Positions 2,103-56,386 of a DNA stretch of 64,000 nucleotides are shown here, piece after piece. The stretch lies in the IMG/VR virus record IMGVR_UViG_3300025818_000017; one strand, given 5' to 3'. The notes beneath the pieces were generated by a model. The model saw nothing but the letters and a program-made list of their open reading frames with translations, was not told the DNA's origin and made no database searches. This stretch comes from a virus. Numbering within the stretch: the first letter of the stretch is position 1; each line of letters starts with the position of its first letter. Both the position numbers and the translations under genes were made by a program.

Positions 2103-2372
2103 CATTAGAACGTTGAAGCAAACTCAACGCTATACTGGACGGGGATGCAATTTCCCCCCGGTCCACAAAGCACATTTTGCGGAGTGTTCTTTGTGGGCCG
2201 GATATTTAGGATCGACAGGTAGTTAATAGGTAAGTGGAGTTCTCGGTAGGCGATGACCGTAAATCAAGCAAACACAATAAACGCAGCATCTAACGATAAT
2301 GCTATTGAGGATATCCGCCTAGCGGCATAATCTTCTTGGGTTCGGTGGGTTCCTAGAAACAGAATACCCACC
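2103..2372 (+). ncRNA. ssrA: circularly permuted (two-piece) tmRNA
   Basis: T-arm GGGGA-TGCAATT-TCCCC (2141-2157) and acceptor 3' strand CCGGTCC-A (2158-2165) lie upstream of acceptor 5' strand GGGCCGG (2195-2201); 7-bp stem with G3:U70 pair (G2197:T2162); GGATCGAC D-loop region; tag ORF; late promoter TAAATA at 2097-2102. Confidence 0.93.
2283..2330 (+). other. tmRNA tag reading frame AASNDNAIEDIRLAA*
   Basis: ATAAAC-GCA resume context, NDN motif, LAA-stop ending. Confidence 0.9.
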
Positions 2373-2381
2373 ATTTTATTA

Positions 2382-2410
2382 TTGACAAACTAAAGTAACT
2401 ATAGTATAAT
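2382..2410 (+). promoter_or_regulatory. sigma70-type early promoter (representative; similar sites near 2955, 6889, 7451, 13672, 18512, 19358, 54014, 54107 and others)
   Basis: TTGACA-17 nt-TATAAT. Confidence 0.8.
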
Positions 2411-2628
2411 GGTCTATGAAATACAGTAAAAACTCAAGTATAAAGGGAGTTGATACTATGTCGTAGATAAATACTTACAAGTCGTAAGACGGAATATATG
2501 ATATATTATGGGGCTGATCCCTACAGTCTATAGTTTAGGCAAAGTGTCCTAATCAAAGAGGTGTTTATTATAGTATATATGAAAGAATACATATACTAAA
2601 AATGTAGAGTTTCTAGTATATTTTAGTC

Positions 2629-2659
2629 AAAAGGGAGACTAAAAATAGTCTCCCTTTTT
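2629..2659 (+). terminator. intrinsic terminator
   Basis: AAAAGGGAGACTA-AAAA-TAGTCTCCCTTTTT. Confidence 0.85.
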
Positions 2660-2723
2660 ACTTGACTGATACCATATTATATGGTATAATCATCCATCAA
2701 CATTTATTACAGAGGAGTCCAAA

Positions 2724-2945
2724 ATGGCTAAAGGAAAAAAACCATCAGGTAAGACTTACGTATCAAAGGGTGAACGCCGCAATGTAGCAAAGTCAATTAC
2801 GAAGGCGATGAAGCGTGAGCGTACTGGTGGTGAAAAGATGATGTATGCTTTGGAAGCATATAAGAAGGGTTTCAAGGTCAAAAAGTTTGGTTTTGATAGC
2901 CTTCCAGAATATCGTTTCAACCGCTATGGCGGAACAAAAAAGTAA
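2724..2945 (+). CDS. small basic hypothetical protein
   Basis: GAGGAG RBS; K/R-rich, 73 aa. Confidence 0.7.
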   Translation: MAKGKKPSGKTYVSKGERRNVAKSITKAMKRERTGGEKMMYALEAYKKGFKVKKFGFDSLPEYRFNRYGGTKK

Positions 2946-2988
2946 AATAATATATTGACATATCACAGGAATGTGGTATAGTAAATAT

Positions 2989-3696: not shown

Positions 3697-3702
3697 TAAA
3701 TA
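3697..3702 (+). promoter_or_regulatory. late promoter TAAATA (representative; also 2097, 7478, 10183, 13704, 28956, 58331, 59561, 62025 and minus-strand copies)
   Basis: recurrent ATAAATA just upstream of structural/late genes, resembling the T4 late promoter TATAAATA. Confidence 0.75.
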
Positions 3703-3707
3703 ACTTT

Positions 3708-4415
3708 ATGTTATTGAATGAACTTTTTAATAAAACGCAGACTTTCGTAGTTGAAGGCGGGAAAGTGTTCAAGGATGCAGATAAAAATCCGCTGACACAA
3801 CGTATTAATCGTGATGACGTAGAACCAACTGTTCGCTGGTTAGAAGATTTAACTGGTCTAAGTTTAGTTGACAATATGCTAGGCACCACTGGCAAAAAAG
3901 ACACAAGTGGCGATTTAGATTTAGCAGTTGATGAAAATGAAATAGATAAAGATACACTAGTAAAAATTCTTTTACAAAAAGGTGTTGATAAAACAGACAT
4001 CAAGAAGAGTGGCGACAATGTGCATTATAAGACGCCAATAAATGGTGAACCAGTCAATGGATATGTACAAACCGATTTTATGTTTGGTAATCCACAGTGG
4101 CAAAAGTTTAGTATGCAAGGCAGTGGTGAAGAAAGTAAGTTCAAAGGTGTTCATAGACACATTCTTCTATCAAGCATTGCGAAAACTATGGGATATAAGT
4201 GGAGTTACAAGAACGGTCTTGTTGACAGAGAAACCAATGCTGTTCTTGATGGCGGCAAAAACCCCGTAATAATTAGCAAGACTTTAGGTATTCCTATTCA
4301 GAATCTAAATGATGTTGATGGTATTATCACGGCTATAAAAGACCGACCAAATTATCAAGAGTTAGTAGCAGACGCCAGAGAAACTTTTGCAAGAGACAAT
4401 CTGGAACTGCCATGA
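3708..4415 (+). CDS. Pol-beta-superfamily nucleotidyltransferase-like protein
   Basis: LGTTGKKDTSGDLDLAVD (G[ST]...DxD) and later QTDF. Confidence 0.7.
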   Translation: MLLNELFNKTQTFVVEGGKVFKDADKNPLTQRINRDDVEPTVRWLEDLTGLSLVDNMLGTTGKKDTSGDLDLAVDENEIDKDTLVKILLQKGVDKTDIKKSGDNVHYKTPINGEPVNGYVQTDFMFGNPQWQKFSMQGSGEESKFKGVHRHILLSSIAKTMGYKWSYKNGLVDRETNAVLDGGKNPVIISKTLGIPIQNLNDVDGIITAIKDRPNYQELVADARETFARDNLELP

Positions 4416-5557
4416 GATTTTTTGAATTCGCCAATCCACTCGTAGAGGATGAACTACTTATGGAAGCTGCCCGTATCCAACACGCAGAAGATGTTGTTTT
4501 TTGGGAAGGAAGTAAGGGTGCAATAAGAGCATTGCATAGTTTGAGAAATATGGACAAAGGCTCCCATAAAGATACTACTATAAAGTGGGATGGTAGTCCT
4601 GCTGTTATTTTCGGGCGTGATGAAGAAGGTAACTTTATCTTCACTGATAAATCAGGTTTTACCGCAAAAGGTTATGATGGTAAGGCAAAGAGTGCAGAAC
4701 ATCTAGAAAAAATGCTAACGAGCCGCCCCGGTTTCGCCAAAAATCCAAAAGGGTATGGTCCATTTATTGCTGCAATGAAATCTGCCTACAATAGTTTTGA
4801 AAGAGCAGTTCCGTTGGATTACCGTGGATTCTTCAAAGGAGACATGCTTTATTTCACTACACCGAAAGTAAAGAATGGCGAATACGTTTTCACTCCAAAC
4901 ATCGTAACGTATAGCGTTGACGTAGACAGTGAGCTAGGAAACAAAATAGGTAAAAGTGTAGCTGGTGTAGTTATTCATAGACAAGTTGGGCCAGATGGAA
5001 CAGAAAGTCCATTGGATGGATATGACATATTCCAAGGCGAAGAAGTTTTGGTTGTCCCACCGGTTACCGTTGAAAAGGAACCATTTGTTCCACATGATAG
5101 CTTGAATATATTAGAGAAGATTATTAAGAAAGATGCGGCGGCGATTGATACAATGCTTGACACTGATACGTTACGTGCTTTGAAGATAACTGATTTCCCC
5201 CAAGTCTTGTATGCCTATACCAATAGTAAAGTCGATACAGGTCTTACCGAAATGGGCAAGGATTTTGGTGCGTGGCTAAAGAACTCGAAACTAAGTGAAC
5301 GAAAGAAACAAAATATCGCCCAATACATTTCCGAAAATAGTGCTGGATGGAAAGCATTATGGGAAGTTGTCGGTGGCATTATGAAAGCAAAAGACGAAAT
5401 AATCTATGATATCGATTCACAAGGTAGTACTGTCAAACAAAGCATTGCTGGACAAGGCGGCGGCGAAGGTTATGTCTTAGCCCATCCAGAAGGCGATATA
5501 AAACTAGTCCCGCGAGAATACTTCTCAAAAGCAAACCGTGCAGCAAGGATGACATAA
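4412..5557 (+). CDS. ligase-fold protein with KxDG motif (DUF6267-like)
   Basis: TTIKWDGSPAVIFG, FKGDMLY, GGEGYV, IKLVPR resemble ligase motifs I, III, IV and V. Confidence 0.65.
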   Translation: MRFFEFANPLVEDELLMEAARIQHAEDVVFWEGSKGAIRALHSLRNMDKGSHKDTTIKWDGSPAVIFGRDEEGNFIFTDKSGFTAKGYDGKAKSAEHLEKMLTSRPGFAKNPKGYGPFIAAMKSAYNSFERAVPLDYRGFFKGDMLYFTTPKVKNGEYVFTPNIVTYSVDVDSELGNKIGKSVAGVVIHRQVGPDGTESPLDGYDIFQGEEVLVVPPVTVEKEPFVPHDSLNILEKIIKKDAAAIDTMLDTDTLRALKITDFPQVLYAYTNSKVDTGLTEMGKDFGAWLKNSKLSERKKQNIAQYISENSAGWKALWEVVGGIMKAKDEIIYDIDSQGSTVKQSIAGQGGGEGYVLAHPEGDIKLVPREYFSKANRAARMT

Positions 5558-5558
5558 A

Positions 5559-6197
5559 ATGAGCGACATTTCATACTTACGCAAACTAATGGATGCGGTT
5601 GAAAACCCGTCAAAGATTATTGCTATCTATCCTGGTCGCTTTCATCCTTTCCACAAGGGACACGCAAGCGTATATGATTTCCTCGTTCAAAACTATGGCG
5701 ATGCTTATATCGCAACATCAGCAAAGGTAGACCCACCAAAATCCCCATTCACATTTGACGAAAAGAAAATGATGATGGAGTTTTCTGGTGTCCCAGCCGA
5801 TAAAATCGTTCAGTGCCGCCAACCATATGTTCCAGTAGAAATCTTACAAAACTTTGATGAAACTGTTGATAAGGTTGTATTTGCTGTATCACAGAAGGAT
5901 ATGGACGAAGACCCACGTTTCCAGTTCAAGCCAAAGCGTGATGGTTCAGCACCATATTTCCAGCCTTGGACTGACGATGAAAGTATGCAACCGTTCAGTA
6001 AGCACGGTTATATTCGTGTAGCACCTACACTGGACTTTGATGTATTGGGTGAGCCAATGCGTTCCGCTACACAGTTGAGGGCACAGTTCGCCCAAGCAGA
6101 TGGCGACACACAAAAAGCAATCATTGAAGACCTTTATGGTTCTTATGACGAAACCATCCATAAGATTATGTATATCAAACTAAAAGGAATGAGATAA
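5559..6197 (+). CDS. HIGH-motif cytidylyl/adenylyltransferase-like protein
   Basis: IAIYPGRFHPFHKGH; RSATQLR. Confidence 0.8.
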   Translation: MSDISYLRKLMDAVENPSKIIAIYPGRFHPFHKGHASVYDFLVQNYGDAYIATSAKVDPPKSPFTFDEKKMMMEFSGVPADKIVQCRQPYVPVEILQNFDETVDKVVFAVSQKDMDEDPRFQFKPKRDGSAPYFQPWTDDESMQPFSKHGYIRVAPTLDFDVLGEPMRSATQLRAQFAQADGDTQKAIIEDLYGSYDETIHKIMYIKLKGMR

Positions 6198-6892
6198 TGA
6201 GACTTCACGAAATCACCGAAGGCATCCTTGATCCAGATCAAGAGTTTATGCAGCGTTTCACATACGCTGTTGAGGACGCCGCACGTGAATACGCAGAGTT
6301 TCTAAAAGACAATAACGACCAAGACGATCCAGAAGAACTTGCTTCTATCCTTGAAACATTCTTTGAGGAAGAAGACCTACCCATTACCGTTCATGTTGGT
6401 GAGTCTGGACGAAATGCTGTTGATTGGTATATCCAAGCCGCACAAGTCACAGGTAGTGGCGAAATGGACCTGATACTTGACCCTGATAGTATTGATGGGC
6501 ATTGGGGTCCAGAAACATTCATTGATGTGATGACGAAAACATTTGAGCATGAAACAATCCATCTACAACAGCGTGATCGTATGGGTGCAGACAAATATAA
6601 CAAACTACCATCTGGCTATATGAAAGGTCTAAAGAAGGCAGAAAAAACAGGTAAAGAGCGTGACCTTATGAGAACCTATTTCCGTGACCCACAAGAGTTG
6701 ATGGCACACGGACACGACATTTACCGTGAAGTTATCAAACTTTCTGATCCAGAAGCGGTATTACGAAACCCCGAAAAACACCGTGAAGACCTACCAACAT
6801 ACGACAAACACCGCCAAATCTTCCCACCAAACGCCAAACCTTTACAGCGTATGATGAAATACGCCTATCAATATTTCCAAAAAAACGCTTGA
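6197..6892 (+). CDS. hypothetical protein with HExxH (zincin-like) motif
   Basis: FEHETIHLQQ. Confidence 0.5.
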   Translation: MRLHEITEGILDPDQEFMQRFTYAVEDAAREYAEFLKDNNDQDDPEELASILETFFEEEDLPITVHVGESGRNAVDWYIQAAQVTGSGEMDLILDPDSIDGHWGPETFIDVMTKTFEHETIHLQQRDRMGADKYNKLPSGYMKGLKKAEKTGKERDLMRTYFRDPQELMAHGHDIYREVIKLSDPEAVLRNPEKHREDLPTYDKHRQIFPPNAKPLQRMMKYAYQYFQKNA

Positions 6893-6925
6893 CATAATCA
6901 TAATCTGTGCTATACTGTATACAGA

Positions 6926-7225
6926 TTGATGGAGATATCTATGTGGAATGAACCCCCCAACAGCTTTACTTTCTGTGACGAGAATGCTTCCCCCGAAGAT
7001 GTGGAACTGTTTCTTGGTCCTGATCCCGAAGAAAAAACCACCTTCATTCGTTTTGGTGAAGACTTCACGATGGCTGATGTAGCCGTCGCCACGGGCAAGT
7101 TCCCGTCCAAATCACAGGCTCGTAAGAATGGTTGGGATGGTGATATCCCCACTGGTTTCACTGAAAAAACTCTTGGTAAGAACGCCAAGAAGGTTCACAT
7201 CTGGATTTTCAAGAAGTTCGACTAA
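6926..7225 (+). CDS. small protein with S4-like RNA-binding motif (TyrRS C-terminal-like)
   Basis: MADVAVATGKFPSKSQARK. Confidence 0.5.
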   Translation: MMEISMWNEPPNSFTFCDENASPEDVELFLGPDPEEKTTFIRFGEDFTMADVAVATGKFPSKSQARKNGWDGDIPTGFTEKTLGKNAKKVHIWIFKKFD

Positions 7226-7464
7226 TGCCACTTGACCTTCACGGATATCACACCCACGATGGCTGGAAACGCTTTATGGATGAAGTGGATGATGCCTATG
7301 ATCGTGGTGTAAAATCATTCAAAGTGATCACTGGCAAAGGTCAGATGCGTGTAGAGTTTCGCATTTGGGCAGAGAACCATTCTAAAGTGCGTAAAGTTGA
7401 ACTGAACAAAGATGGCGGAAGTTTCAAAGTAACATTACGCAAAAAACCACTTGACAAATCCTAA
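7225..7464 (+). CDS. stand-alone Smr domain endonuclease
   Basis: LDLHG and VITGKG motifs. Confidence 0.9.
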   Translation: MPLDLHGYHTHDGWKRFMDEVDDAYDRGVKSFKVITGKGQMRVEFRIWAENHSKVRKVELNKDGGSFKVTLRKKPLDKS

Positions 7465-7501
7465 ATCTGTGCTATGATAAATACATAGTCAGGAGAAAAC
7501 A

Positions 7502-7702
7502 ATGATTGAAGTCAAAGTAAAGAATGTTGTCAACGAAGCCACTGGTGAAGTGGAAGAAGTTATCGTCAATGAAGAAGAAGTTGCCGCTTACCTTGCTGAA
7601 TCCGAAAAGGGCATTGAGGAAGCGGAAGTTATTGCTCCTGAGAACTTCTTAGAACATACCCGTAGCCGCATCGCAGAGCGCCGTAAGCAACTTGGAAAAT
7701 AA
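7502..7702 (+). CDS. small acidic hypothetical protein
   Basis: AGGAG RBS, early and late promoters upstream. Confidence 0.65.
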   Translation: MIEVKVKNVVNEATGEVEEVIVNEEEVAAYLAESEKGIEEAEVIAPENFLEHTRSRIAERRKQLGK

Positions 7703-8239
7703 ATGCGTTTATGGGAGTTCATAACAGAAACGAGCAGAGGCATTACTGGCATCAAAGAGACTGATGGTTACATCGATTCTTTGATTGATATCATAGACAA
7801 ACATCCCGCCGCTGAAAAAATCATTGAAGATGCAATGAAGAAGTTCATTGCGGTAAAGACTCGTGATTCACAGGAACCTTACAACAATAAGGATTACGGT
7901 CACCAAGGCGTACTGAAAGGTTATAAACACGTTCATCTTCTAAAAAGTAATAAAATAAGCAATGGTACGAACCCTGTGGTTTTGTATTATCGCATTGAGG
8001 CTGGTATTCTTATTTTGGTTCATATACAGTTTCATATCAACGCCGCCAATAGAAGTAGTGAAGATAAGCGTTTAGTCAAAAAACTACGCAGAGCAGAACA
8101 GAACGATACATCTATGGTAATGCCAGTAGATGACCCAACTGAAAAGAAGAAAACACAAGGCGACTATAATCAACAAAAGAAAGACGATTATAAAGACCAG
8201 CAATGGTACAAAGATCAACAAGAGTTCTATAACCACTAA
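7703..8239 (+). CDS. RelE/YafQ-like mRNA interferase domain protein
   Basis: DYGHQGVLKGYKHVHL...VLYYRI...LILVHI..H pattern. Confidence 0.55.
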   Translation: MRLWEFITETSRGITGIKETDGYIDSLIDIIDKHPAAEKIIEDAMKKFIAVKTRDSQEPYNNKDYGHQGVLKGYKHVHLLKSNKISNGTNPVVLYYRIEAGILILVHIQFHINAANRSSEDKRLVKKLRRAEQNDTSMVMPVDDPTEKKKTQGDYNQQKKDDYKDQQWYKDQQEFYNH

Positions 8240-8253
8240 CAAAAGAGGGGCAT

Positions 8254-11827: not shown

Positions 11828-12191
11828 ACTTATCATAGTTTCTTCTCCTACGTACTATCACGGCAATGTACCAAGTCTTATGCTTTATGATATAGAACCC
11901 GATGATATGAAGATCATTATGGAGATTCTACTTGATTCGGATATCGTTATGAGTGTTCATTTGGGGTATTCCGATAAATCAGAGCGCGAATGGTTGTTAA
12001 ATACTAGTAGACAGGTTGACAGAACGATTGTTAATCTTCAAAAACATGATTTGATTAAAGGATTTATATTGAATTACCCCACTGTTTCGTATTATAATAA
12101 TACACACGATATAGAGTCGTTGAATATGAACCAACTAACTGATCCCATCGATTACATACTGAGGTTTGTGCATGAGCAAAGAGACGAATGA
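11811..12191 (+). CDS. hypothetical protein
   Basis: coupled ORF in operon. Confidence 0.55.
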   Translation: MYSDNKLIIVSSPTYYHGNVPSLMLYDIEPDDMKIIMEILLDSDIVMSVHLGYSDKSEREWLLNTSRQVDRTIVNLQKHDLIKGFILNYPTVSYYNNTHDIESLNMNQLTDPIDYILRFVHEQRDE

Positions 12192-13431
12192 AAAGAACTT
12201 AAACTGCGACTTTTGTGGAAAGAACCGCAACGAGGTCGATAAGCTTATTGTGGGCAACGATACAAGCATTTGTAATGAGTGTGTTGATCTATGTCATGAC
12301 ATTCTTGAGAACGATAGGTTTACCAAACTAAAGAAAAACCTAATCAACAAAGACTATCTAAATCCCATCAAAATCAAAGAACACCTAGACAAATATGTTA
12401 TTTCACAAGATAAAGCAAAGATTGCTTTATCCGTTGCCGTAGCAAATCATTTCAAGCGTATTAATCATCCCCCCAAAGACCTAAAGATTGAGAAGTCAAA
12501 TATCATGATTGCTGGTCCTACTGGTAACGGTAAGACTATGCTTGCCCGTGCAATCGCGGAATATCTAGAGGTTCCATTTGTTATCGCTGACGCCACTACT
12601 CTTACAGAGGCTGGTTATGTAGGCGATGATGTAGAAAGCATTATTTCCCGTTTGCTACACGTTGCTGATTACGATGTGGAGAAAGCACAGAACGGTATTA
12701 TCTTCATTGACGAGATTGATAAGATTGCCCGTAAAAGTGAGAATGTATCTATTACCCGTGATGTATCTGGTGAAGGCGTACAGCAAGCCCTATTAAAACT
12801 AGTAGAAGGCACGGATTGTCGTGTAGCACCACAAGGTGGGCGTAAGCACCCATCACAAGAGTTGATCAATGTCAACACAGAAAACATCCTATTCATTGCG
12901 TCTGGCGCATTCGTGGGACTTGATAAGATTATTGAGAAACGCAAAACACCAGGTAGTATCGGCTTCGGTGCAACTATTTCTGAAAAAGAAAAAGACACAC
13001 TAGAAATGTTGAATGATATTGAACCTCACGATTTCGTGAGTTTCGGTCTTATCCCTGAGTTCACTGGTCGTTTCCCTGTATTCACTCATGTTGAGAAACT
13101 TGATGCGGCTGATTTGGTTCATATTATGACTGATACTAAGAACTGTATTATTGACCAGTATAAGTATTATTTCACCTTACAGGACATTGAGTTGGAGTTC
13201 AGCAAGGAAGCGTTAGTGGCTATTGCTGATAAAGCGGTTACATTAGAAACTGGTGCCCGTGGTCTAAAGAGCATCATTGAGGATGTATTATTGCCACATC
13301 AGTTTCATATGTATGATTACGCCAAGGATGGTGTAAAAAAACTTATTGTAGATGAGGCTACAATCGAGTATAATGATAAGATAAAGTTTGTTTATGAAGA
13401 GGTATCAAATGGCAAAACAGAAAGAGTTTAA
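12172..13431 (+). CDS. clpX: ATP-dependent Clp protease ATP-binding subunit ClpX
   Basis: C4 zinc domain, [23 protein letters not shown] loop, GARGL. Confidence 0.98.
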
Positions 13432-13675
13432 CGGCTCAACTATTACAATCAAGTATCCCCCGAATCCTACTGACGAACAGAAGGCAAGGGCGTTCAACAA
13501 CGGTTTGCGTAAGTTCAAGAAGATGGTTCAGACTGAGGGTATCATCCAGGAATATCGTGAACGTGAGTTTTATGAGAAACCAACTACTCGTCGCCGAAGA
13601 GAAAAGTCGATGGCTCGTAAGCGTTGGCTAAAGCGCCAGCGTGAACTAGAGAACGAGCGTTGGGGTAATACTTGA
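13409..13675 (+). CDS. rpsU: ribosomal protein bS21 with N-terminal extension
   Basis: LRKFKKMVQTEGIIQEYREREFYEKPTTRRRREK. Confidence 0.92.
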   Translation: MAKQKEFNGSTITIKYPPNPTDEQKARAFNNGLRKFKKMVQTEGIIQEYREREFYEKPTTRRRREKSMARKRWLKRQRELENERWGNT

Positions 13676-13712
13676 CAAATCCCATTATATTGTGATATAA
13701 TGATAAATAAGA

Positions 13713-13806
13713 GTGAGGATATGCCATAAGGGTGTCCTCACCTTACTACCCGCAGATGCCGAATGGTTCGGGTCTGCATTACATAACTTGCTTAGATATA
13801 AGGAGT
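13713..13806 (+). promoter_or_regulatory. structured hsp20 leader with ROSE-like RNA thermometer
   Basis: two upstream hairpins, then ACTTGCTT pairing with AAGGAGT (SD) with a bulged G. Confidence 0.65.
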
Positions 13807-13812
13807 AAAGCA

Positions 13813-14241
13813 ATGAAAACATTAACACATCGTGATTTTCCACAACTCGTCGGCTTTGACCGTCTATTCAATGAACTAGATCGTTTGACTACAGCATCTT
13901 CTGGTTCATCCGCAGGGTATCCCCCATACAACGTAATCAGTGAGAGTGACAACGATTATATCGTAGAGATTGCTGTTGCTGGTTTCAGCGAGGATGCTTT
14001 GAGCATTGAAGAGCATGACGGAACATTGACTATTCGTGGTATTCCAGCAGAAGGTGAAGAAGATCGTAAGTACGTTCATAAAGGTATTTCTAACCGTAAG
14101 TTTGAGCGTTCATTTACATTGGCTGACCACGTTCATGTCGAAGGTGCATCTGTTGAGAACGGACTTCTGACCATTAAGTTGATTCGTGAAGTCCCAGAGG
14201 AACTACAACCTCGTAAGATTGCTATTGAATATAAGAAGTAA
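13813..14241 (+). CDS. ibpA: small heat shock protein Hsp20 (IbpA-like)
   Basis: GFDRLF, YPPYN, EIAVAGF, F.RSFTLA, NGLL.I.L, PRKIAI. Confidence 0.97.
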   Translation: MKTLTHRDFPQLVGFDRLFNELDRLTTASSGSSAGYPPYNVISESDNDYIVEIAVAGFSEDALSIEEHDGTLTIRGIPAEGEEDRKYVHKGISNRKFERSFTLADHVHVEGASVENGLLTIKLIREVPEELQPRKIAIEYKK

Positions 14242-14263
14242 TCTTCAAAAAGAGTTCCCTTAC

Positions 14264-14298
14264 AAGAGCGGTAGAGAAGTCTGCCGCTCTTTCTTTTT
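14264..14298 (+). terminator. intrinsic terminator
   Basis: AAGAGCGGTAG / CTGCCGCTCTT stem plus T-run. Confidence 0.85.
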
Positions 14299-14340
14299 GT
14301 ATAAATAACTTAGTATATTATTCAAAGAAGGGTGCTATCA

Positions 14341-14823
14341 ATGAAACAGAATCCGATACTATTCAAATGGTGGATACAAACAGTTGTTATTATATTTGCG
14401 TCTGTTATCGCTGGTCATCTTGGTTGGTGGGAAGCACTATGGGATGCTGACCAAACAAAGATTTCTATTCTTATTCTATTTCTATTCGTTCTTTCAACTT
14501 TGGGCGCTGGATATATCAGTAAGGAAAATACCCAAGAAGTTTTAGAAAAATATCAGAACTATGTTTGGTTCGCCAGTGAAGCAATGATTACCCTTGGGAT
14601 GATTGGAACGGTTGCCGGCTTCCTTATTCTTCTTGGAAATGGGTTTGAAAGTATTGATGTTACCGATACAAAAAGTCTGCAAAATATTATTGCTGGCATG
14701 GCGGTTGGTATGAGTACAGCCCTTACAACTACTTTGGTTGGTCTGATTGGTTCAGTATTGACTAAACTGCAAATGGTTATTATTGAGAACAGTTGGGAAG
14801 ACGATGAGGAAGTACAGAAGTAA
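14341..14823 (+). CDS. MotA/TolQ/ExbB proton-channel family protein
   Basis: LGMIGTVAGF and GMSTALTTTLVGL TM motifs. Confidence 0.85.
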   Translation: MKQNPILFKWWIQTVVIIFASVIAGHLGWWEALWDADQTKISILILFLFVLSTLGAGYISKENTQEVLEKYQNYVWFASEAMITLGMIGTVAGFLILLGNGFESIDVTDTKSLQNIIAGMAVGMSTALTTTLVGLIGSVLTKLQMVIIENSWEDDEEVQK

Positions 14824-15975: not shown

Positions 15976-15983
15976 AGGACCGT

Positions 15984-16286
15984 ATGACTGATACTGATAT
16001 TGCTGAAAAAGTAAAGACTAATACCCGACTAAAAGAACCATCAATGTTCAATGTTATCTATCTAAACGACGAACAGACAACGATGCAGTTTGTCGTTGAT
16101 ACACTTATTCGTCATTTTGATTATGATGATTCAAGTGCTATGGAAAAGATGGCTGAAATCCATGATGAAGGTGCTGGTGTTGTTGCTACACTACCATATG
16201 AAATGGCTGAACAGAAAGGTGTAGAAGTAACGATTGAAGCACGAAATCTTGGTTTCCCGTTACAGGTAAAGGTGGAACCAGCGTAA
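15984..16286 (+). CDS. clpS: Clp protease adaptor ClpS
   Basis: LKEPSMFNVIYLNDEQTTMQFV...IHDEG...EMAEQK...GFPL. Confidence 0.97.
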   Translation: MTDTDIAEKVKTNTRLKEPSMFNVIYLNDEQTTMQFVVDTLIRHFDYDDSSAMEKMAEIHDEGAGVVATLPYEMAEQKGVEVTIEARNLGFPLQVKVEPA

Positions 16287-19408: not shown

Positions 19409-19852
19409 ATGACCGATACATTCCCCGTTCTTTACATCCTGATGCGTAATGACCTTGCCAGCATGAACGCTGGTAAGGCGATGGCACAGGCTTCCCACGC
19501 TTCTAACGCTTTTGTTGATCAAATGTCACAAGAAGAAGATAAGTTTGAAGGATATTCTACCAACCCTGACGACGATGCCGACTTGAAGCTGTTTTGGAAA
19601 TGGCGTACAGAGACTGAACAGGGTTTCGGCACTGTTTTGGTTCTGGCTGTGAACGAAGCACAGATGCGTACCGCAGTTGAAGTTGCTGGTGCGATGGGGT
19701 TTGTTTCTGGCGTTGTTCACGATCCAACCTACCCGTTGCGTGATGGCGACACGACACACTTCTTGCCGGTTGACACCTGTTCGTTCATCTTTGGCGACAA
19801 AAACGATCCAATGCTTGGCGCTGTTGTTGGCAACTTCCCACTGCATCCATAA
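19409..19852 (+). CDS. peptidyl-tRNA hydrolase type 2 (Pth2)
   Basis: YILMRNDL.MNAGKAMAQASHA, W...Q....VL, VHD, T. Confidence 0.85.
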   Translation: MTDTFPVLYILMRNDLASMNAGKAMAQASHASNAFVDQMSQEEDKFEGYSTNPDDDADLKLFWKWRTETEQGFGTVLVLAVNEAQMRTAVEVAGAMGFVSGVVHDPTYPLRDGDTTHFLPVDTCSFIFGDKNDPMLGAVVGNFPLHP

Positions 19853-41563: not shown

Positions 41564-41569
41564 ACATAG

Positions 41570-52860: not shown

Positions 52861-54021
52861 ATGAAAATAAACGAAGTCACAGAACCCCGCAAAGTAGATA
52901 CTTCTTCAATCGTCACACCGGACTTGAAGGAAATCTTTCGTGCGTTTGAAGCGGCTGGCAAGAACATCAAGATTGCTGGTGGTGCTGTTCGTGACCTTCT
53001 GCTTGGCAAAGAACCAAAAGATATTGATCTTGCCACAGACGCAACCCCCGACGAAATGAAAGAAATCCTTGCTGGTTTCAGAACCATTGACACTGGCTTG
53101 GAACACGGTACAATCACTGTGCTTGGTCGTAACGAAGGGGAAGAGTTTGAAATCACTACATTGCGTATTGATGTCGCCACGGATGGCAGACACGCCGATG
53201 TAGAATGGACAACTGATTTCCGCCAAGATGCTGATCGCCGTGACCTGACATTCAACGCTATGTTCATGGACTTGGATGGAACACTACACGATTTCCACGG
53301 TGGAGAAAAAGACCTCTACAGTGGAACAGCCCGTTTCGTTGGTAATGCTCAAAATCGTATTGAAGAAGATTTCTTGCGTATTCTGCGTTTCTTCCGTTTC
53401 CAAGGGCGTATGAAGTTTCCTAAATGGGACCAAGAAACGCTACACACAATCAAGCGCACTGCTGATGGTCTAAAACAGATTAGCGGTGAACGTGTTGCTA
53501 TGGAAATGGAAAAGATTCTAAAAGGCAAGCACACCATTGACCTGTTGGAAAAGATGGATGAAACTGGTATCTTGGATATCATTGGTTTCAAGCCTAACTT
53601 GAAAAAGTTAGAACAAGTTAAGAAAGTTACGGATGATTTCGCAACTTTGCTTGCTGCTTCTGTTGGTTCAACCAAGAAGATTGAAGATATCAAAGCCCGT
53701 TGGAAACTGTCTAACACTATTACTGATAGTGCTACCTTTGTGCTGGATAATGCTGATGTTGGTAAAGATGAAACGACATTGAAAGTATTGGCAGCAAAAC
53801 CAAAGACAAAGATCAACGATGCTGCCCGTATCGCTTTGTTCAACGAAGACAAACCGTTGGCTAAAATGATTGTGAAATGGGAGCCACCCGTGTTTCCTAT
53901 CACGGGTAAAGACCTGATTGCCCGTGGTGTAAAGCCTGGGAAAGAAATGGGTATGATGCTTGCTGACTTGCGAAAAAAATGGGAAGATTCTGGTTTCCCT
54001 AATGATTTTTCTATTGACTAA
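52861..54021 (+). CDS. cca: CCA-adding tRNA nucleotidyltransferase
   Basis: GGAVRD, DIDLAT, EITTLR, RRDLTFNA, EDFLRILRFFRF, ERV. Confidence 0.95.
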   Translation: MKINEVTEPRKVDTSSIVTPDLKEIFRAFEAAGKNIKIAGGAVRDLLLGKEPKDIDLATDATPDEMKEILAGFRTIDTGLEHGTITVLGRNEGEEFEITTLRIDVATDGRHADVEWTTDFRQDADRRDLTFNAMFMDLDGTLHDFHGGEKDLYSGTARFVGNAQNRIEEDFLRILRFFRFQGRMKFPKWDQETLHTIKRTADGLKQISGERVAMEMEKILKGKHTIDLLEKMDETGILDIIGFKPNLKKLEQVKKVTDDFATLLAASVGSTKKIEDIKARWKLSNTITDSATFVLDNADVGKDETTLKVLAAKPKTKINDAARIALFNEDKPLAKMIVKWEPPVFPITGKDLIARGVKPGKEMGMMLADLRKKWEDSGFPNDFSID

Positions 54022-54168
54022 CTCACATAATAGGTGATATAATACATCTATACTCGAACAGCACGGAAAACATCTAAAAAAACTTTAAAAAAGACGCATT
54101 TAAGTGTTGACAATCAAGTAAAAGATAAGTATAATATACATACATAATGAATGAACACAACGAGTTTT

Positions 54169-54349
54169 AGGATACTCACAGCAACTATTATGAATCTTTT
54201 ATTGGAAAAAGCAGAATAGTATCCTGTCTTATTGGGGAAGCATGCAGCAAATAACTTTACATCCGTAGAAAGGGCCACAAGCCCGCCATTATACTCCTTC
54301 AAGGGAAACCGCTTCCCGCACTAATGGGGAACCTTGAAGGGAGTATTTT
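54169..54349 (+). ncRNA. two tandem stem-NNN-CAGCAA-stem RNA elements plus overlapping terminator-like hairpin in the TROVE leader
   Basis: AGGATAC-TCA-CAGCAA...GTATCCT-G and GGGAAGC-ATG-CAGCAA...GCTTCCC-G. Confidence 0.7.
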
Positions 54350-54372
54350 GGTTTTAACAAGAGGGAAGAGAT

Positions 54373-55818
54373 ATGAGTAACACATTCGCAGAAGCAGTTG
54401 AAACAACAGAACAAGTAGTTCTTGGTGAGAACGGTATGCCTACGCTTTCCAGTTCTTTGAATAAGAACGTCGATCTGTTTTTCGCTATTGGTGCTTCTCG
54501 TGGTAAAGATATCACCGACCTCTATGAAGGTGCTTATCAGGAAAACCGTGAAACCGCTGTCCGTTGCCTTATGTGGGCACGAGACATTCGTGGTGGTGCC
54601 GGTGAGCGTCAGACCTTCCGTAATCTATTGAAGTACTTGGAGAAGGTTCATCCAAACACTTTGCTACAGGTTCTACCAAAGATTCCAGAATATGGTCGTT
54701 GGGATGACTTGCTAGTGTTTGAACGTGACTTCATCCGTGAACAAGCATTTGACCTAATCAAGAACGCTCTTGATGATGGTAACGGGCTTGCTGCAAAGTG
54801 GATGCCTCGTAAGGGCAAACTCGCTCACGCTATGCGTAACCATTTTGGTATGACACCAAAGCAGTATCGTAAGACTTTGGTAAATCTATCAAAGACTGTG
54901 GAACAACAGATGTGTGCCAAGGATTGGGAAAACATCAACTACAGTCATGTTCCAAGCGTGGCAGCATCCCGTTACCAGAATGCGTTCAATCGTCACGATC
55001 CAGATGGCTATAGTGCCTATCGTGAAGGTCTAATCCGCAACGATGGTTCTGTGAAAATCAATGCGTCTGCCATCTACCCATATGATGTAATCAAGGGTAT
55101 GAACAAGGGTGACTTGGATGTGTCTATCGCACAGTGGGATGCATTGCCAGACTATCTTGGTGACAATGCTATTCTGCCAATGGTAGATGTTAGTAGTTCA
55201 ATGACTTGTTCTGCTGGTGGTTCATCCACAACTTGTATGGATGTTGCTATTTCACTTGGTCTGTATATCGCAGATAAGCAGAAGGGTCCATTCCGCAACC
55301 AGATTATGACTTTCAGTGCCAATCCAGTATTACAGTCACTAACTGGTACAATCTACGAGAAGTACACACAGCTTCGTCGTGCCGATTGGGGAATGAATAC
55401 TAACCTATTGGCGGCATTTGACCGTATCCTTGAGGTTGCTACTAGCAACAACATTGACCAAAGTCAGATGCCAAAGTATCTGCTAATCCTAAGTGATATG
55501 CAGTTTGATGAAGCAACTGGTAGTTCTTACAGTTGGGGTGCCCGTGGTGGCTCTGTTCCAACTATGGATGCCGGTGCATTTGCACAGGCTCGTAGCAAGT
55601 TTGAGAAGGCTGGCTACGAACTACCAACTATTGTCTTCTGGAATCTGAATGCCCGTGGCAATCAGGCACCAGTAAGTTACAATGAGAATGGGGTGTGTCT
55701 GGTAAGTGGTTTCTCACCTTCAATCGTTGAAAGCGTATTGAAGGCGCAGAAGATCACACCAGAGGGTATCATGATTGATGCCTTGTACGGTCCAAGATAT
55801 GATGGGATCGTATACTAA
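54373..55818 (+). CDS. TROVE/Ro60-like protein with vWA domain (DUF2828-type)
   Basis: RDIRGGAGER, YGRWDDL, AKWMPR, VDVSSSM (MIDAS), SDMQFD, FWNL, VSGFS. Confidence 0.88.
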   Translation: MSNTFAEAVETTEQVVLGENGMPTLSSSLNKNVDLFFAIGASRGKDITDLYEGAYQENRETAVRCLMWARDIRGGAGERQTFRNLLKYLEKVHPNTLLQVLPKIPEYGRWDDLLVFERDFIREQAFDLIKNALDDGNGLAAKWMPRKGKLAHAMRNHFGMTPKQYRKTLVNLSKTVEQQMCAKDWENINYSHVPSVAASRYQNAFNRHDPDGYSAYREGLIRNDGSVKINASAIYPYDVIKGMNKGDLDVSIAQWDALPDYLGDNAILPMVDVSSSMTCSAGGSSTTCMDVAISLGLYIADKQKGPFRNQIMTFSANPVLQSLTGTIYEKYTQLRRADWGMNTNLLAAFDRILEVATSNNIDQSQMPKYLLILSDMQFDEATGSSYSWGARGGSVPTMDAGAFAQARSKFEKAGYELPTIVFWNLNARGNQAPVSYNENGVCLVSGFSPSIVESVLKAQKITPEGIMIDALYGPRYDGIVY

Positions 55819-56167
55819 CTCCACCCACGGGAAAGGCAGTCTAACGATTGTCGAGATACGAGCGATGGCGGGGGCTACGTAATCTAACTATGCTAAATAA
55901 AGTCGTGATGAACAAAAGTATCAATACACAAAAGTTTGACTGAGGAATGTCGGTGAAGTACTGGCATTCCTTTTCTTTTAACCAGCAGGAGAAACTAAAA
56001 TGGACAGTATCGAATACATTGAAATGACGGGTTGCGAGAGGTTGTTGGAGAGAGTGAATACAAAAAGTGCAAATACACCTTGGGGTGATAACATTGAAAG
56101 TCAAAACTTAGAGATTGTAAAAGAGTTTCTAACACATAGATATCAGGAATTGAAAGGGAAACAGTAA

Positions 56168-56386
56168 GTGGCTAAAGAAGGTTTGCTAGAATTTGATGGT
56201 GACGTTATCGATGTTCTACCACAAAGTATGTTTCAAGTTCGTCTTGATAACGACCACGAAGTTCTAGCTTACCTTAGTGGTAAGATACGAACCAACAAAA
56301 TTAAGATTGTTGAAGGTGATCGTGTCAAGCTCGAAATGAGTACATATGACCTTGGAAAAGGCAGAATAACGTACAGGTACAAGTAA
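56168..56386 (+). CDS. infA: translation initiation factor IF-1
   Basis: LPQSMFQVRLDNDHEVLAYLSGKIR...GDRV..EMSTYDL.KGRITYR. Confidence 0.97.
   Translation: MAKEGLLEFDGDVIDVLPQSMFQVRLDNDHEVLAYLSGKIRTNKIKIVEGDRVKLEMSTYDLGKGRITYRYK

What the first reader, a model, noticed from the sequence alone, without database searches (positions are those of the whole stretch)
2103..56386. Near-complete ribosome-rescue and translation quality-control kit spread over the window
Seen: tmRNA, Smr nuclease (7225), S4-like protein (6926), YafQ-like RNase (7703), ClpX (12172), bS21 (13409), ClpS (15984), Pth2 (19409), CCA enzyme (52861), IF1 (56168). Known: SmrB cuts mRNA at collided ribosomes to feed tmRNA, ClpXP degrades tagged products, and Pth recycles peptidyl-tRNA. 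Inference: the phage rebuilds this pathway, possibly to counter RNase or anticodon-nuclease defences, or to free ribosomes from host mRNA. SmpB and ClpP are absent from this window.
Basis: partly seen in the sequence, partly recalled or inferred. Interest (0 to 1): 0.75.

Follow-up and report, generated by a model that had tools for sequence, protein, structure and literature searches.

The report
Phage translation-rescue and proteolysis gene modules
A large freshwater phage really does carry its own two-piece tmRNA, ClpX, ClpS, Smr and RelE/YafQ-like nucleases, Pth2, CCA enzyme, bS21 and IF1, but they form several separately inherited modules of a kind already described in jumbo phages, not one purpose-built kit.

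Summary
OBSERVATION: mostly confirmed. Rfam or Pfam confirm eight of the ten parts:
- a permuted two-piece tmRNA (2107-2330)
- Smr, ClpX, bS21, ClpS, PTH2, a CCA-adding enzyme and IF1.

The "YafQ-like RNase" has no Pfam hit. Its AlphaFold model nevertheless matches only RelE/YafQ/YoeB/ParE toxins (Z up to 10.3). The "S4-like" protein stays unproven, with three weak leads to the TyrRS C-terminal S4 motif. SmpB and ClpP are absent from the window. ClpA and ClpP lie about 18-22 kb downstream in contigs of the same phage.

INTERPRETATION: partly supported. The trans-translation arm is coherent. The tag ends in LAA, ClpX has its full motif set, the phage has its own ClpP, and host SmpB is needed. 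But the parts sit in at least five transcription units and two clusters (2-20 kb and 52.8-56.4 kb), split by 33 kb of unrelated genes, and their phyletic patterns differ:
- ClpX-bS21-sHSP-ClpS is a conserved block also present in Pseudomonas phage PA5oct, which has no tmRNA, Smr or PTH2.
- tmRNA plus PTH2 recur in alphaproteobacterial siphoviruses that lack ClpX and Smr.
- Sinorhizobium phage Phosso has nearly all parts.

Jumbo-phage "ribosome rescue / RNA repair" sets are already published. The new elements are the conserved block [S4-like?]-Smr-orf66-RelE/YafQ-like and a tmRNA without an encoded CCA. The scan had noted this stretch before (e1-5830773).

The parts
2068..2097 (+). Consensus sigma70-type promoter (TTGACA, 18-nt spacer, TATAAT) directly upstream of the tmRNA
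   Evidence: 12 of 12 hexamer matches; sequence read
2107..2383 (+). Permuted two-piece tmRNA gene. T-arm 2141-2157; acceptor 3' strand 2158-2164; discriminator A2165 followed by CAA, not CCA; intervening segment 2166-2194; acceptor 5' strand 2195-2201 with G3(2197):U70(2162). Tag frame 2283-2327 (AASNDNAIEDIRLAA), stop 2328-2330. Closing hairpin 2344-2372 with a U-rich tail.
   Evidence: Rfam RF04321 93.4 bits and RF01850 86.5 bits with alignments. Sequence. Relatives L070 and L071 keep it, with compensatory changes in the acceptor stem.
6941..7225 (+). 94-aa protein, first gene of the Smr unit (promoter 6889-6916). Possible TyrRS-C-terminal/S4-type RNA-binding motif; unproven.
   Evidence: No Pfam. 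AF2 pLDDT 87.7. VIA Z 3.2 with 25% identity to the E. coli TyrRS C-terminal domain. ESM Atlas score 0.90 to a viral S4/SYY_C cluster. hhalign P 3.4e-4 over 25 columns. Stop overlaps the Smr start.
7225..7464 (+). Stand-alone 79-aa Smr-domain nuclease. DxH motif at D4-L5-H6, GxG at G37-K38-G39, no N-terminal extension.
   Evidence: Pfam Smr E 4.1e-9; sequence; motif definitions from 10.1101/2021.08.16.456513. Homologues in Atu_ph07, Phosso and IMG/VR contigs.
7502..7702 (+). orf66: acidic 66-aa protein that abuts the RelE/YafQ-like gene and has its own promoter at 7451-7478. Candidate antitoxin or inhibitor.
   Evidence: Directly upstream of the RelE/YafQ-like gene in four lineages; alignment; promoter.
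7703..8239 (+). 178-aa protein with a RelE/YafQ/YoeB-fold core (about residues 12-125) and a C-terminal helical, charged extension. Candidate ribosome-dependent mRNA endonuclease.
   Evidence: AF2 model; Foldseek; VIA Z 10.3 with all 50 rows in the RelE/ParE superfamily; homologue P0020 hits Pfam YafQ_toxin; family-invariant H76, H78, Y95, Y96 and H111.
12172..13431 (+). ClpX unfoldase with a complete motif set
   Evidence: Pfam zf-C4_ClpX, AAA_2 and ClpB_D2-small. 53% identical to solved bacterial ClpX. Zn-finger cysteines, Walker A and B, GYVG, RKH, IGF and GARGL are visible in the alignment.
13409..13675 (+). Ribosomal protein bS21 with an N-terminal extension; overlaps the end of clpX
   Evidence: Pfam Ribosomal_S21 E 1.1e-13, match from residue 36 of the long form; sequence
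13732..14241 (+). Small heat-shock protein (HSP20), own consensus promoter at 13672-13701
   Evidence: Pfam HSP20 E 2.4e-19; promoter
15984..16286 (+). ClpS, N-degron adaptor of ClpA
   Evidence: Pfam ClpS E 3.5e-22. PDB ClpS E 4e-13, with the N, D, M and H pocket residues aligned.
19409..19852 (+). Pth2-type peptidyl-tRNA hydrolase, promoter at 19358-19385
   Evidence: Pfam PTH2 E 1.6e-8. A profile of phage homologues hits all solved Pth2 proteins at about 3e-4, with K23 and D105 conserved.
52861..54021 (+). Class II CCA-adding enzyme
   Evidence: Pfam PolyA_pol plus PolyA_pol_RNAbd. Best solved relatives are CCA enzymes (human TRNT1 3e-77), well ahead of poly(A) polymerases at 1e-23.
54373..55818 (+). 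DUF2828/DUF7788 (TROVE/Ro60-like) protein between the CCA enzyme and IF1
   Evidence: Pfam DUF7788 E 7e-50 and DUF2828 E 9e-29
56168..56386 (+). Translation initiation factor IF1
   Evidence: Pfam eIF-1a E 1.3e-23
57222..58325 (-).
   Evidence: PHROG protease; Trypsin plus PDZ Pfam families on the identical product in L172

Best explanation
WHAT IT IS. The window belongs to a large (about 181 kb) freshwater myovirus with a T4-type baseplate. Its host is probably an alphaproteobacterium. The phage carries several separately inherited accessory modules that act on the host translation and proteolysis machinery. Several have near-consensus sigma70-type promoters, which suggests early expression.

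MODULES
(a) Trans-translation arm. This is a two-piece tmRNA whose tag ends in LAA. It would be charged by host AlaRS and delivered by host SmpB. Tagged products would go to phage ClpX plus phage ClpP. Because this tmRNA does not encode its 3' CCA, its acceptor piece must be completed by a CCA-adding enzyme, phage or host.
(b) Nuclease block [S4-like?]-Smr-orf66-RelE/YafQ-like. It encodes two candidate ribosome-associated mRNA endonucleases, the second probably held in check by orf66. Their cuts would create the non-stop complexes that tmRNA resolves.
(c) Conserved block ClpX-bS21-sHSP-ClpS. Here ClpS serves the phage ClpA-ClpP N-degron route and bS21 serves initiation.
(d) Pth2, which recycles dropped-off peptidyl-tRNA.
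(e) CCA enzyme, Ro60-like protein and IF1.

OVERALL EFFECT. Together the modules would raise the infected cell's capacity to free stalled ribosomes, recycle tRNA and destroy incomplete or unwanted proteins. They are not one operon or one co-evolved kit.

SHOWN: gene identities, motifs, synteny and distribution.
INFERRED: expression timing, use of host SmpB, RNase activity of Smr and the RelE-like protein, and any hand-over between modules.
For: IDENTITIES AND MOTIFS.

tmRNA
- Conserved in relatives, with compensatory acceptor-stem changes and alphaproteobacterial-type tags (ANDN...ALAA).
- The CCA is encoded in relatives and in Phosso but not here.

PROTEASE PARTNERS
- ClpA (767 aa) and ClpP (185 aa) were found downstream by walking contigs that share exact proteins with the window.
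- Complete relatives Phosso and Atu_ph07 have ClpP but no SmpB.

RelE/YafQ FOLD.

CONSERVED GENE ORDER
- The four-gene block is conserved in the divergent relative L074, whose RelE-like protein is 33% identical.
- Smr-ClpX-S21-sHSP-ClpS stand in the same order in Phosso. ClpX-S21-x-x-sHSP-ClpS stand in the same order in PA5oct.

PROMOTERS: near-consensus sigma70 promoters (11-12 of 12) precede the tmRNA, the Smr unit, the orf66 unit, HSP20 and PTH2.

LITERATURE
- The SMR domain of SmrB contacts S21, and S21-SMR operons exist in bacteria.
- Such gene sets are known in large phages.
Against: - No expression, processing or activity data exist. The one RNA run held only three short pieces and none on the tmRNA.
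- SmpB could not be searched in the whole genome.
- The Smr lacks the uS2-binding hook that SmrB needs for ribosome binding.
- The RelE-like protein has no direct Pfam or PDB sequence hit. The fold alone cannot separate RNase types from ParE-type gyrase poisons.
- The modules occur independently of each other in other phages. Related IMG/VR fragments have S21-sHSP-ClpS without ClpX at that site. A functional hand-over between modules is therefore not required by the data.
- ClpX in phages has also been linked to replication or virion assembly.
Confidence: 0.6

Rival explanations
1. Counter-defence kit. The set exists mainly to survive host immunity that attacks translation, such as anticodon nucleases, RelE-type abortive-infection toxins and Cas13-like RNases. 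The tmRNA frees ribosomes jammed on cut mRNA. Pth2 releases peptides from cloven or dropped tRNA. The CCA enzyme mends 3' ends. ClpXP removes the fragments.
For: Iyer et al. 2021 (PMC7824862) propose this for jumbo phages, covering tRNAs, the CCA enzyme, PTH2 and IF3. Phosso places a polynucleotide kinase and a nucleotidyltransferase beside Smr. A Ro60-like protein lies beside the CCA enzyme. tmRNA plus PTH2 recur in four lineages of alphaproteobacterial phages.
Against: No RNA ligase, PNK or tRNA gene was found in this window. The phage encodes two candidate mRNA nucleases of its own, which fits attack as well as repair. ClpS, bS21, IF1 and sHSP have no role in such repair. No host defence is known for this uncultured phage.
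Confidence: 0.2
2. Offensive 'cut and clear' shut-off. Early after infection, phage Smr and the RelE/YafQ-like nuclease (released from orf66) cleave host mRNAs on ribosomes. The phage tmRNA with ClpXP then strips the ribosomes and recycles the amino acids. bS21 and IF1 re-programme the freed ribosomes for phage messages.
For: Two ribosome-nuclease candidates lie 240 bp apart under strong sigma70-type promoters, 5 kb from the tmRNA. The block is conserved in a divergent relative. SMR contacts S21 on collided ribosomes, and the phage supplies its own bS21.
Against: No evidence shows that phage mRNAs would be spared. Smr lacks the ribosome hook. The RelE-like gene is confined to close relatives and is absent from Phosso, Atu_ph07 and IMG/VR relatives. 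All activities are unproven.
Confidence: 0.12
3. Unlinked accessory genes. Each gene acts alone: ClpX, ClpS and sHSP in virion assembly, replication or host-protein turnover; bS21 and IF1 in initiation; the tmRNA as a simple dosage supplement. The impression of a pathway comes from reading a gene-rich large-phage genome.
For: The modules occur apart in other phages. They lie in separate transcription units. 33 kb of unrelated genes separate the two clusters. Published views see ClpX and ClpA as assembly chaperones.
Against: The LAA-ending tag, the complete ClpX recognition loops and the phage ClpP fit together specifically. Near-complete co-occurrence in Phosso, with conserved order, exceeds what rare genes would give by chance.
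Confidence: 0.25

Closest known systems
[quoted passage not shown]
   Same: Phosso has a permuted tmRNA, Smr, ClpX, bS21, sHSP, ClpS, PTH2, a CCA-type nucleotidyltransferase and ClpP, and no SmpB. Smr-ClpX-S21-sHSP-ClpS stand in the same order as here. Atu_ph07 has ClpX, Smr, the CCA enzyme, PTH2 and ClpP. AP-J-162 is described in PMC11242549.
   Different: Those genomes are 470-490 kb with 33-66 tRNAs and IF3 instead of IF1. The window has no tRNA. Atu_ph07 has no tmRNA hit. They lack the RelE/YafQ-like gene. Their Smr proteins carry an N-terminal extension of 30-40 residues. Phosso's tmRNA encodes CCA.
ClpX-S21-sHSP-ClpS block of Pseudomonas phage PA5oct (Arenbergviridae)
   Same: Same gene order: ClpX, bS21, two small ORFs, heat-shock protein, ClpS. 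ClpS is 40% identical.
   Different: PA5oct has no tmRNA above cut-off, no Smr and no PTH2 homologue of this type. The block therefore does not depend on trans-translation.
Bacterial trans-translation (tmRNA-SmpB, ClpXP) with two-piece tmRNA as in Alpha- and Betaproteobacteria
   Same: Permuted gene order, G3:U70, T-arm, resume codon GCA, tag ending LAA and a closing hairpin. The tag core NDNA resembles alphaproteobacterial tags and those of related phages.
   Different: No SmpB gene lies nearby. The 3' CCA is not encoded. The tag sequence is unique (AASNDNAIEDIRLAA). The gene is carried by a virus under a consensus sigma70-type promoter.
E. coli SmrB (collision-sensing mRNA endonuclease)
   Same: SMR domain with a DLH catalytic motif and a GxG loop. 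Genomic association with an S21 gene, as noted for bacteria.
   Different: Only 79 aa, and it starts at the DxH motif. It lacks the N-terminal helix/hook that binds uS2, without which SmrB does not bind ribosomes. GxG is TGKG rather than HGxG-like. No solved structure matches by sequence.
RelE/YafQ/YoeB ribosome-dependent mRNA interferases of type II toxin-antitoxin systems (also Cami1)
   Same: Fold match over nearly the whole toxin (Z 8.3-10.3, rmsd 2.0-3.1 A). Conserved histidines. A small acidic ORF abuts it upstream, like an antitoxin.
   Different: 178 aa, with a 60-residue charged helical C-terminal extension. No Pfam hit of its own. Encoded by a lytic-type large phage next to Smr. An orphan family with about nine detectable relatives among 1.8 billion representatives.

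Membership tests
Two-piece (permuted) tmRNA | Covariance-model match above the curated threshold, with permuted order (acceptor 3' half before 5' half) | tested here: met
   RF04321 93.4 bits (cut-off 47), full length 1-213; RF01850 86.5 bits (cut-off 84)
Two-piece (permuted) tmRNA | tRNA-like domain with G3:U70 alanine identity pair and a T-arm | tested here: met
   GGGCCGG (2195-2201) pairs with CCGGUCC (2158-2164), giving G2197:U2162. T-arm at 2141-2157. Stem pairs 4-6 covary in L070 and L071.
Two-piece (permuted) tmRNA | Tag reading frame with an Ala resume codon, a stop, and a C-terminal degron | tested here: met
   GCA at 2283, 15 codons, UAA at 2328; the tag ends LAA
Two-piece (permuted) tmRNA | Encoded 3' CCA after the discriminator | tested here: not met
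   A2165 is followed by CAA. Relatives L070, L071 and Phosso read A-CCA. This is a variable feature, not disqualifying, but it makes CCA addition obligatory.
Two-piece (permuted) tmRNA | SmpB partner and processing into two RNA pieces | not testable with these tools
   No SmpB in the window. The whole genome is not held. No usable RNA reads.
SmrB-type collision nuclease | SMR domain with the DxH catalytic motif and GxG loop | tested here: met
   Pfam Smr E 4.1e-9; D4-L5-H6 and G37-K38-G39; motifs as defined
SmrB-type collision nuclease | N-terminal helix/hook (acidic-acidic-x-x-x-aromatic motif) that binds uS2 | tested here: not met
   The protein begins two residues before the DxH motif. SMR-only SmrB does not bind ribosomes. 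I therefore do not file it as SmrB, only as a stand-alone SMR nuclease.
RelE/YafQ/YoeB mRNA interferases | RelE/ParE-superfamily fold | tested here: met
   Foldseek top rows are all this superfamily (probability 1.0, TM 0.72 to YafQ). VIA Z 10.3, rmsd 2.0 A, 86 of 88 residues.
RelE/YafQ/YoeB mRNA interferases | Sequence-profile membership (Pfam YafQ_toxin, ParE_toxin and the like) | tested here: inconclusive
   The window protein has no hit at E<=5. Its profile has no PDB hit. Homologue P0020 hits YafQ_toxin at E 5e-9, and P0016 hits ParE_toxin weakly at E 0.023. P0004 against P0020: BLASTP E 5e-13.
RelE/YafQ/YoeB mRNA interferases | Catalytic residues and ribosome-dependent RNase activity; neutralising antitoxin | not testable with these tools
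   Invariant H76, H78 and H111 are suggestive. orf66 is conserved upstream.
ClpX | C4 zinc finger, Walker A and B, GYVG pore loop, RKH loop, IGF ClpP-docking loop, sensor-2 | tested here: met
   Pfam; all motifs are visible in the alignment to solved ClpX, E 2e-132
ClpS | ClpS fold with N-degron pocket residues, and a ClpA partner | tested here: met
   Pfam E 3.5e-22. N, D, M and H align with the E. coli pocket residues. ClpA with a Clp_N domain is encoded about 18 kb past the window in contigs of the same phage.
Pth2 peptidyl-tRNA hydrolase | PTH2 profile match with conserved Lys and Asp | tested here: met
   Pfam E 1.6e-8 above cut-off. The family profile hits six solved Pth2/Bit1 entries (3e-4 to 0.07), with GK and hD aligned.
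CCA-adding enzyme (class II nucleotidyltransferase) | Head domain plus RNA-binding body; closer to CCA enzymes than to poly(A) polymerases | tested here: met
   Pfam. Solved CCA enzymes at 3e-77 to 7e-34 against poly(A) polymerases at 1e-23. Activity not tested.
S4 / TyrRS C-terminal alpha-L RNA-binding domain | Profile or fold match to the S4 domain | tested here: inconclusive
   No Pfam, Foldseek or PDB-profile hit. Weak leads: VIA Z 3.2 with 25% identity to TyrRS residues 348-424; ESM Atlas score 0.90 to a viral S4/SYY_C cluster; hhalign probability 38%, P 3.4e-4 over 25 columns.
bS21 and IF1 | Pfam family match above cut-off | tested here: met
   Ribosomal_S21 51.1 bits (cut-off 27); eIF-1a 82.8 bits (cut-off 30.2)

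The most novel reading that the evidence does not exclude
The conserved four-gene block [S4-like RNA binder]-Smr-orf66-RelE/YafQ-like is a phage weapon rather than a repair tool. In this reading two ribosome-guided mRNA endonucleases, one held by a cognate inhibitor, cut host messages on translating ribosomes early in infection. The phage's own tmRNA (completed by its CCA enzyme), ClpXP and Pth2 then clear the wreckage. Ribosomes carrying phage bS21 and IF1 are handed to phage mRNAs. This would be a virus-run 'cut, rescue and re-programme' cycle.
Probability: 0.12. Interest if true: 0.8.

Novelty: new member of a known kind. Interest (0 to 1): 0.45.

Why it matters
Large phages are known to carry pieces of the translation and proteolysis machinery, but how the pieces work together is untested.

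This genome gives a compact, uncultured example at about 181 kb, below the usual jumbo size. It holds:
- a full ClpX/ClpP and ClpS/ClpA/ClpP set
- a two-piece tmRNA that must be CCA-completed
- two candidate ribosome-associated nucleases.

Two results are useful beyond this window:
- ClpX-bS21-sHSP-ClpS is a conserved synteny block spanning phages of Alpha- and Gammaproteobacteria.
- Smr travels with bS21 in phages. This echoes the SMR-S21 contact seen on collided ribosomes.

If the nuclease block proves active, it would link phage host shut-off to ribosome rescue. If not, the finding is a further catalogue entry.

Tried and rejected
tmRNA DETECTION AND RELATIVES
- ARAGORN found no tmRNA or tRNA in the window. 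Rfam shows the tmRNA is real, so ARAGORN-based surveys may miss such genes.
- Megablast of 25 kb against 50,697 phage records gave no match.
- No whole genome is held, so smpB and tRNAs could not be sought genome-wide.
- An exact 48-mer of the tmRNA was absent from IMG/VR.
- Loci found through the DUF6267 protein (L001-L051) carry no tmRNA nearby. That gene is a poor guide to relatives.

S4-LIKE AND OTHER PROTEIN CALLS
- For the S4-like protein, Pfam at E<=5, Foldseek and a PDB profile search gave nothing. More distant homologues are not next to an annotated Smr.
- Single-sequence PDB searches found nothing for Smr, PTH2 or DUF6267. PHROGs added nothing for the nuclease block.
- Complex prediction for orf66 with the RelE-like protein was not available. 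No statement on binding follows.

EXPRESSION AND HOST
- Only one RNA run held the stretch. It held three short perfect pieces and none over the tmRNA, and these are contigs only. This is no evidence for or against expression.
- The nearest cellular ClpX homologues are about 50% identical across many phyla. This gives no host or donor signal.

FRAGMENTARY RELATIVES
- IMG/VR relatives are 10-15% fragments. The lack of ClpX and PTH2 in them is uninformative, except that ClpX is not between orf126 and S21 there.

READINGS REJECTED
- The tmRNA as a leftover attachment-site fragment: rejected, because the gene is full length with its own promoter, tag frame and closing hairpin.
- ClpS as part of trans-translation: rejected on established knowledge that ClpS is the ClpA N-degron adaptor.

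Full report
1. WHAT THE WINDOW IS

Almost all genes are on the + strand, and GC is about 40%. A T4 gp9/10-type baseplate gene and other phage families mark it as a myovirus-type phage.
- No close relative exists among 50,697 phage records at the DNA level, and no whole genome is held.
- Contigs encoding identical proteins occur in freshwater metagenomes of several studies. The longest contig carrying them is 181,136 bp.

2. CHECKING THE TEN LISTED PARTS

Eight are confirmed by curated profiles.

tmRNA
- Rfam finds a full-length permuted tmRNA at 2107-2330 (RF04321, 93.4 bits, cut-off 47). The betaproteobacterial two-piece model matches over 2054-2378 (86.5 bits, cut-off 84). ARAGORN misses it.
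- Reading the sequence gives this layout:
  - a 12/12 sigma70-type promoter at 2068-2097
  - T-arm 2141-2157
  - acceptor 3' strand 2158-2164 and discriminator A2165
  - a 29-nt intervening segment
  - acceptor 5' strand 2195-2201 with G3:U70
  - a tag frame from GCA at 2283 to UAA at 2328, encoding AASNDNAIEDIRLAA
  - a closing hairpin at 2344-2372 with a U-rich tail.
- After the discriminator the DNA reads CAA, not CCA.

Proteins confirmed by Pfam: Smr, ClpX, bS21, ClpS, PTH2, a PolyA_pol-type nucleotidyltransferase and IF1.
- ClpX is 53% identical to solved bacterial ClpX. It shows the four zinc-finger cysteines, Walker A and B, the GYVG pore loop, the RKH loop, the IGF ClpP-docking loop and sensor-2.
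- The nucleotidyltransferase is far closer to solved CCA-adding enzymes (3e-77) than to poly(A) polymerases (1e-23).
- ClpS aligns with the E. coli N-degron pocket residues.
- A profile of the phage PTH2 family hits every solved Pth2, with the GK lysine and the aspartate conserved.
- Smr carries D4-L5-H6 and G37-K38-G39. These are the DxH and GxG motifs defined for SmrB.

3. THE TWO DOUBTFUL PARTS

The "YafQ-like RNase" (7703-8239)
- It has no Pfam hit even at E<=5 and is nearly an orphan.
- An exhaustive HMMER search found nine relatives. One of them, P0020, is a Pfam YafQ_toxin member at E 5e-9. It aligns to the window protein at BLASTP E 5e-13.
- An AlphaFold model built on six sequences (pLDDT 72.5) matches only RelE/YafQ/YoeB/HigB/ParE toxins and the RelE-like domain of Cami1. 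Foldseek gives probability 1.0. VIA gives Z up to 10.3, rmsd 2.0 A, over 86 of 88 target residues.
- The family keeps H76, H78, Y95, Y96 and H111 invariant.
- I accept the fold and regard RNase activity as likely but unproven. The profile has no direct PDB sequence hit, and ParE-type toxins share the fold.

The "S4-like" protein (6941-7225)
- It is not established. There is no Pfam, Foldseek or PDB-profile hit.
- Three weak and partly independent leads point to the TyrRS C-terminal / S4 alpha-L motif:
  - VIA Z 3.2 with 25% identity
  - an ESM Atlas neighbour cluster of viral S4/SYY_C proteins at score 0.90
  - an hhalign local match, P 3.4e-4 over 25 columns.

4. ABSENCES, AND WHAT LIES OUTSIDE THE WINDOW

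- An HMM built from five bacterial SmpB genes finds nothing in the window or in contigs of the same phage (best E 0.37).
- Phage ClpP queries find nothing in the window.
- I walked downstream through contigs that share exact proteins with the window. This reached GroES, then DnaJ at about +17.6 kb, a 767-aa ClpA with a Clp_N domain, two small ORFs and a 185-aa ClpP.
- The phage therefore has both ClpX/ClpP and ClpS/ClpA/ClpP. An HtrA-like protease lies in the window at 57222-58325.

5. LAYOUT

The parts form two clusters, 2.1-19.9 kb and 52.9-56.4 kb.
- The 33 kb between them hold a UDP-sugar dehydrogenase with an intein fragment, an aminotransferase, a hydroxylase, a sulfotransferase, two radical-SAM proteins, a redoxin, a phosphoesterase and an endonuclease.
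- Near-consensus sigma70-type promoters (11-12 of 12) stand before the tmRNA, the 94-aa/Smr pair, the orf66/RelE-like pair, HSP20 and PTH2. These are separate units, plausibly read by host RNA polymerase early in infection. This is inference.

6. RELATIVES AND CO-OCCURRENCE

Homologues are rare among phage records: Smr in 3, ClpS in 16, this PTH2 type in 41, ClpX-like in 208.

- Sinorhizobium phage Phosso (469 kb) carries, within 30 kb and in the same order as here: nucleotidyltransferase, PNK, Smr, ClpX, IF3, bS21, sHSP and ClpS. It also has PTH2, ClpP and a permuted tmRNA at 113 bits, but no SmpB.
- Atu_ph07 has IF3, ClpX, Smr, the CCA enzyme, PTH2 and ClpP, but no tmRNA or SmpB.
- Pseudomonas phage PA5oct has ClpX-S21-x-x-sHSP-ClpS in the same order. 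It has no tmRNA, Smr or PTH2.
- Caulobacter phage CcrColossus, Brevundimonas phage Kikimora and Ruegeria phage RpAliso (Caulobacter and Brevundimonas phages of Dolichocephalovirinae, and a 149-kb Ruegeria phage) have PTH2 and a permuted tmRNA but no Smr or ClpX. They are also not among the ClpS hits. phiM12 has PTH2 only.
- IMG/VR fragments with a 62%-identical Smr carry a permuted tmRNA (119-134 bits), bS21-sHSP-ClpS and the same neighbours. Smr is inverted there, and ClpX is absent between orf126 and S21.
- A more distant relative, L074, keeps the whole order from DUF6267 to ClpS, including [94 aa]-Smr-[66 aa]-RelE-like. orf66 abuts the RelE-like gene in every lineage found.

Co-occurrence is therefore real and far above chance for such rare genes. 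It resolves into blocks with different histories, and most of it reflects common descent among large phages.

7. THE tmRNA IN RELATIVES

An alignment with L070 and L071 shows:
- G3:U70 kept while acceptor pairs 4-6 change on both sides
- alphaproteobacterial-type tags (ANDNFAHEDFALAA and ANDNVAYEDYALAA)
- an encoded CCA.

The window's gene has a 2-nt gap that removes the CCA. Phosso also encodes CCA and the tag ANDNVSTKVALAA. The tag type, and the restriction of PTH2 and Smr homologues to phages of Alphaproteobacteria, suggest an alphaproteobacterial host even though the beta model scores best here. This is inference. ClpX gives no host signal.

8. HOW IT MOST LIKELY WORKS

The coherent core is trans-translation.
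- The tmRNA would be alanine-charged (G3:U70) and delivered by host SmpB.
- It would add a tag whose LAA end is the ClpX degron. This rests on established knowledge of ssrA tags.
- Phage ClpX has the recognition loops and the IGF loop to dock on phage or host ClpP.
- The missing CCA makes a CCA-adding enzyme necessary, which links the 52.9-kb gene to the tmRNA. The host enzyme could also serve.

Pth2 fits as the recycler of dropped peptidyl-tRNA.

Smr and the RelE-like protein are candidate ribosome-associated mRNA nucleases whose products are tmRNA substrates.
- Smr lacks the uS2 hook that SmrB needs.
- The SMR domain contacts S21, and S21-SMR operons exist in bacteria. The phage's own bS21 and the adjacent 94-aa putative RNA binder are therefore possible substitutes. 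This is speculative.

ClpS belongs to the ClpA N-degron route, and bS21 and IF1 to initiation. They are parallel modules, not parts of rescue.

9. COMPARISON WITH THE LITERATURE

- Al-Shayeb et al. 2020 list tmRNA, SmpB, IF1, IF3, S21 and CCA-adding enzymes in huge phages.
- Iyer et al. 2021 describe ClpP, ClpS, ClpA and ClpX in jumbo phages. They propose an 'RNA repair / ribosome rescue' role for tRNAs, the CCA enzyme, PTH2 and IF3 against host RNases. Smr is not mentioned.
- The AP-J-162 paper notes tmRNA, six Clp genes, S21, Hsp20 and Pth.
- The general idea is thus known. I found no paper linking phage Smr or RelE-like nucleases to phage tmRNA.

10. VERDICT

The 'single rebuilt pathway' reading is only partly right.
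- The finding is a new member of a known kind.
- Two sub-findings deserve follow-up: the conserved nuclease block, and the ClpX-bS21-sHSP-ClpS synteny block.

Noticed in passing
window 2382-2662 (+): A second unit with a perfect sigma70-type promoter (TTGACA, 17-nt spacer, TATAAT at 2382-2410) and a strong terminator hairpin (about 2625-2660), with no ORF in between. It lies directly after the tmRNA. The 251-nt RNA folds well (z -4.3). No Rfam family matches. It is a candidate small RNA.
   Followed up: partly
PA5oct MK797984.1 169754-172904; Phosso L067 18984-36339; window 12172-16286: ClpX-bS21-(small ORFs)-sHSP-ClpS is a conserved gene order shared by phages of Gamma- and Alphaproteobacteria. 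It looks like an old synteny block of one clade of large myoviruses.
   Followed up: partly
window 2207-2285 (DNA runs X3, X6): Metagenome contigs break inside the tmRNA. Loose ends continue into other tmRNA-like sequences. One encodes a tag beginning ANDNNVAFALA. These could be other phages' or the host's tmRNA in the same waters.
   Followed up: no
window 27839-28927 and 29793-30326: A UDP-glucose/GDP-mannose dehydrogenase whose C-terminus matches Pfam Intein_splicing (residues 271-359). This is consistent with the split-intein note of the scan.
   Followed up: partly
window 54373-55818: A DUF2828/DUF7788 (TROVE/Ro60-like) protein lies between the CCA enzyme and IF1. The 350-nt leader noted by other readers was not examined here.
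   Followed up: no
L068 (Phosso 349596-350198): The permuted tmRNA match in Phosso spans 603 nt against a 213-position model. Its intervening or internal segments are therefore much longer than in the window's gene.
   Followed up: no
window 14332-14823: A MotA/TolQ/ExbB-like membrane protein (Pfam E 3.8e-7) lies between HSP20 and ClpS. It is conserved at that place in relatives (L052, L074).
   Followed up: no
window 3708-6892: A four-gene run upstream of the Smr unit includes DUF6267 (E 3.5e-32) and a cytidylyltransferase-like protein. Its order is kept in L074. No solved relative was found by sequence, and its function is open.
   Followed up: partly
L172, L175 and L176 (3-22 kb beyond the window end): Further proteostasis and nucleotide genes of the same phage: GroES, a clamp-loader-like AAA+ protein, PhoH, DnaJ, ClpA, ClpP, DHFR and thymidylate synthase.
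   Followed up: partly
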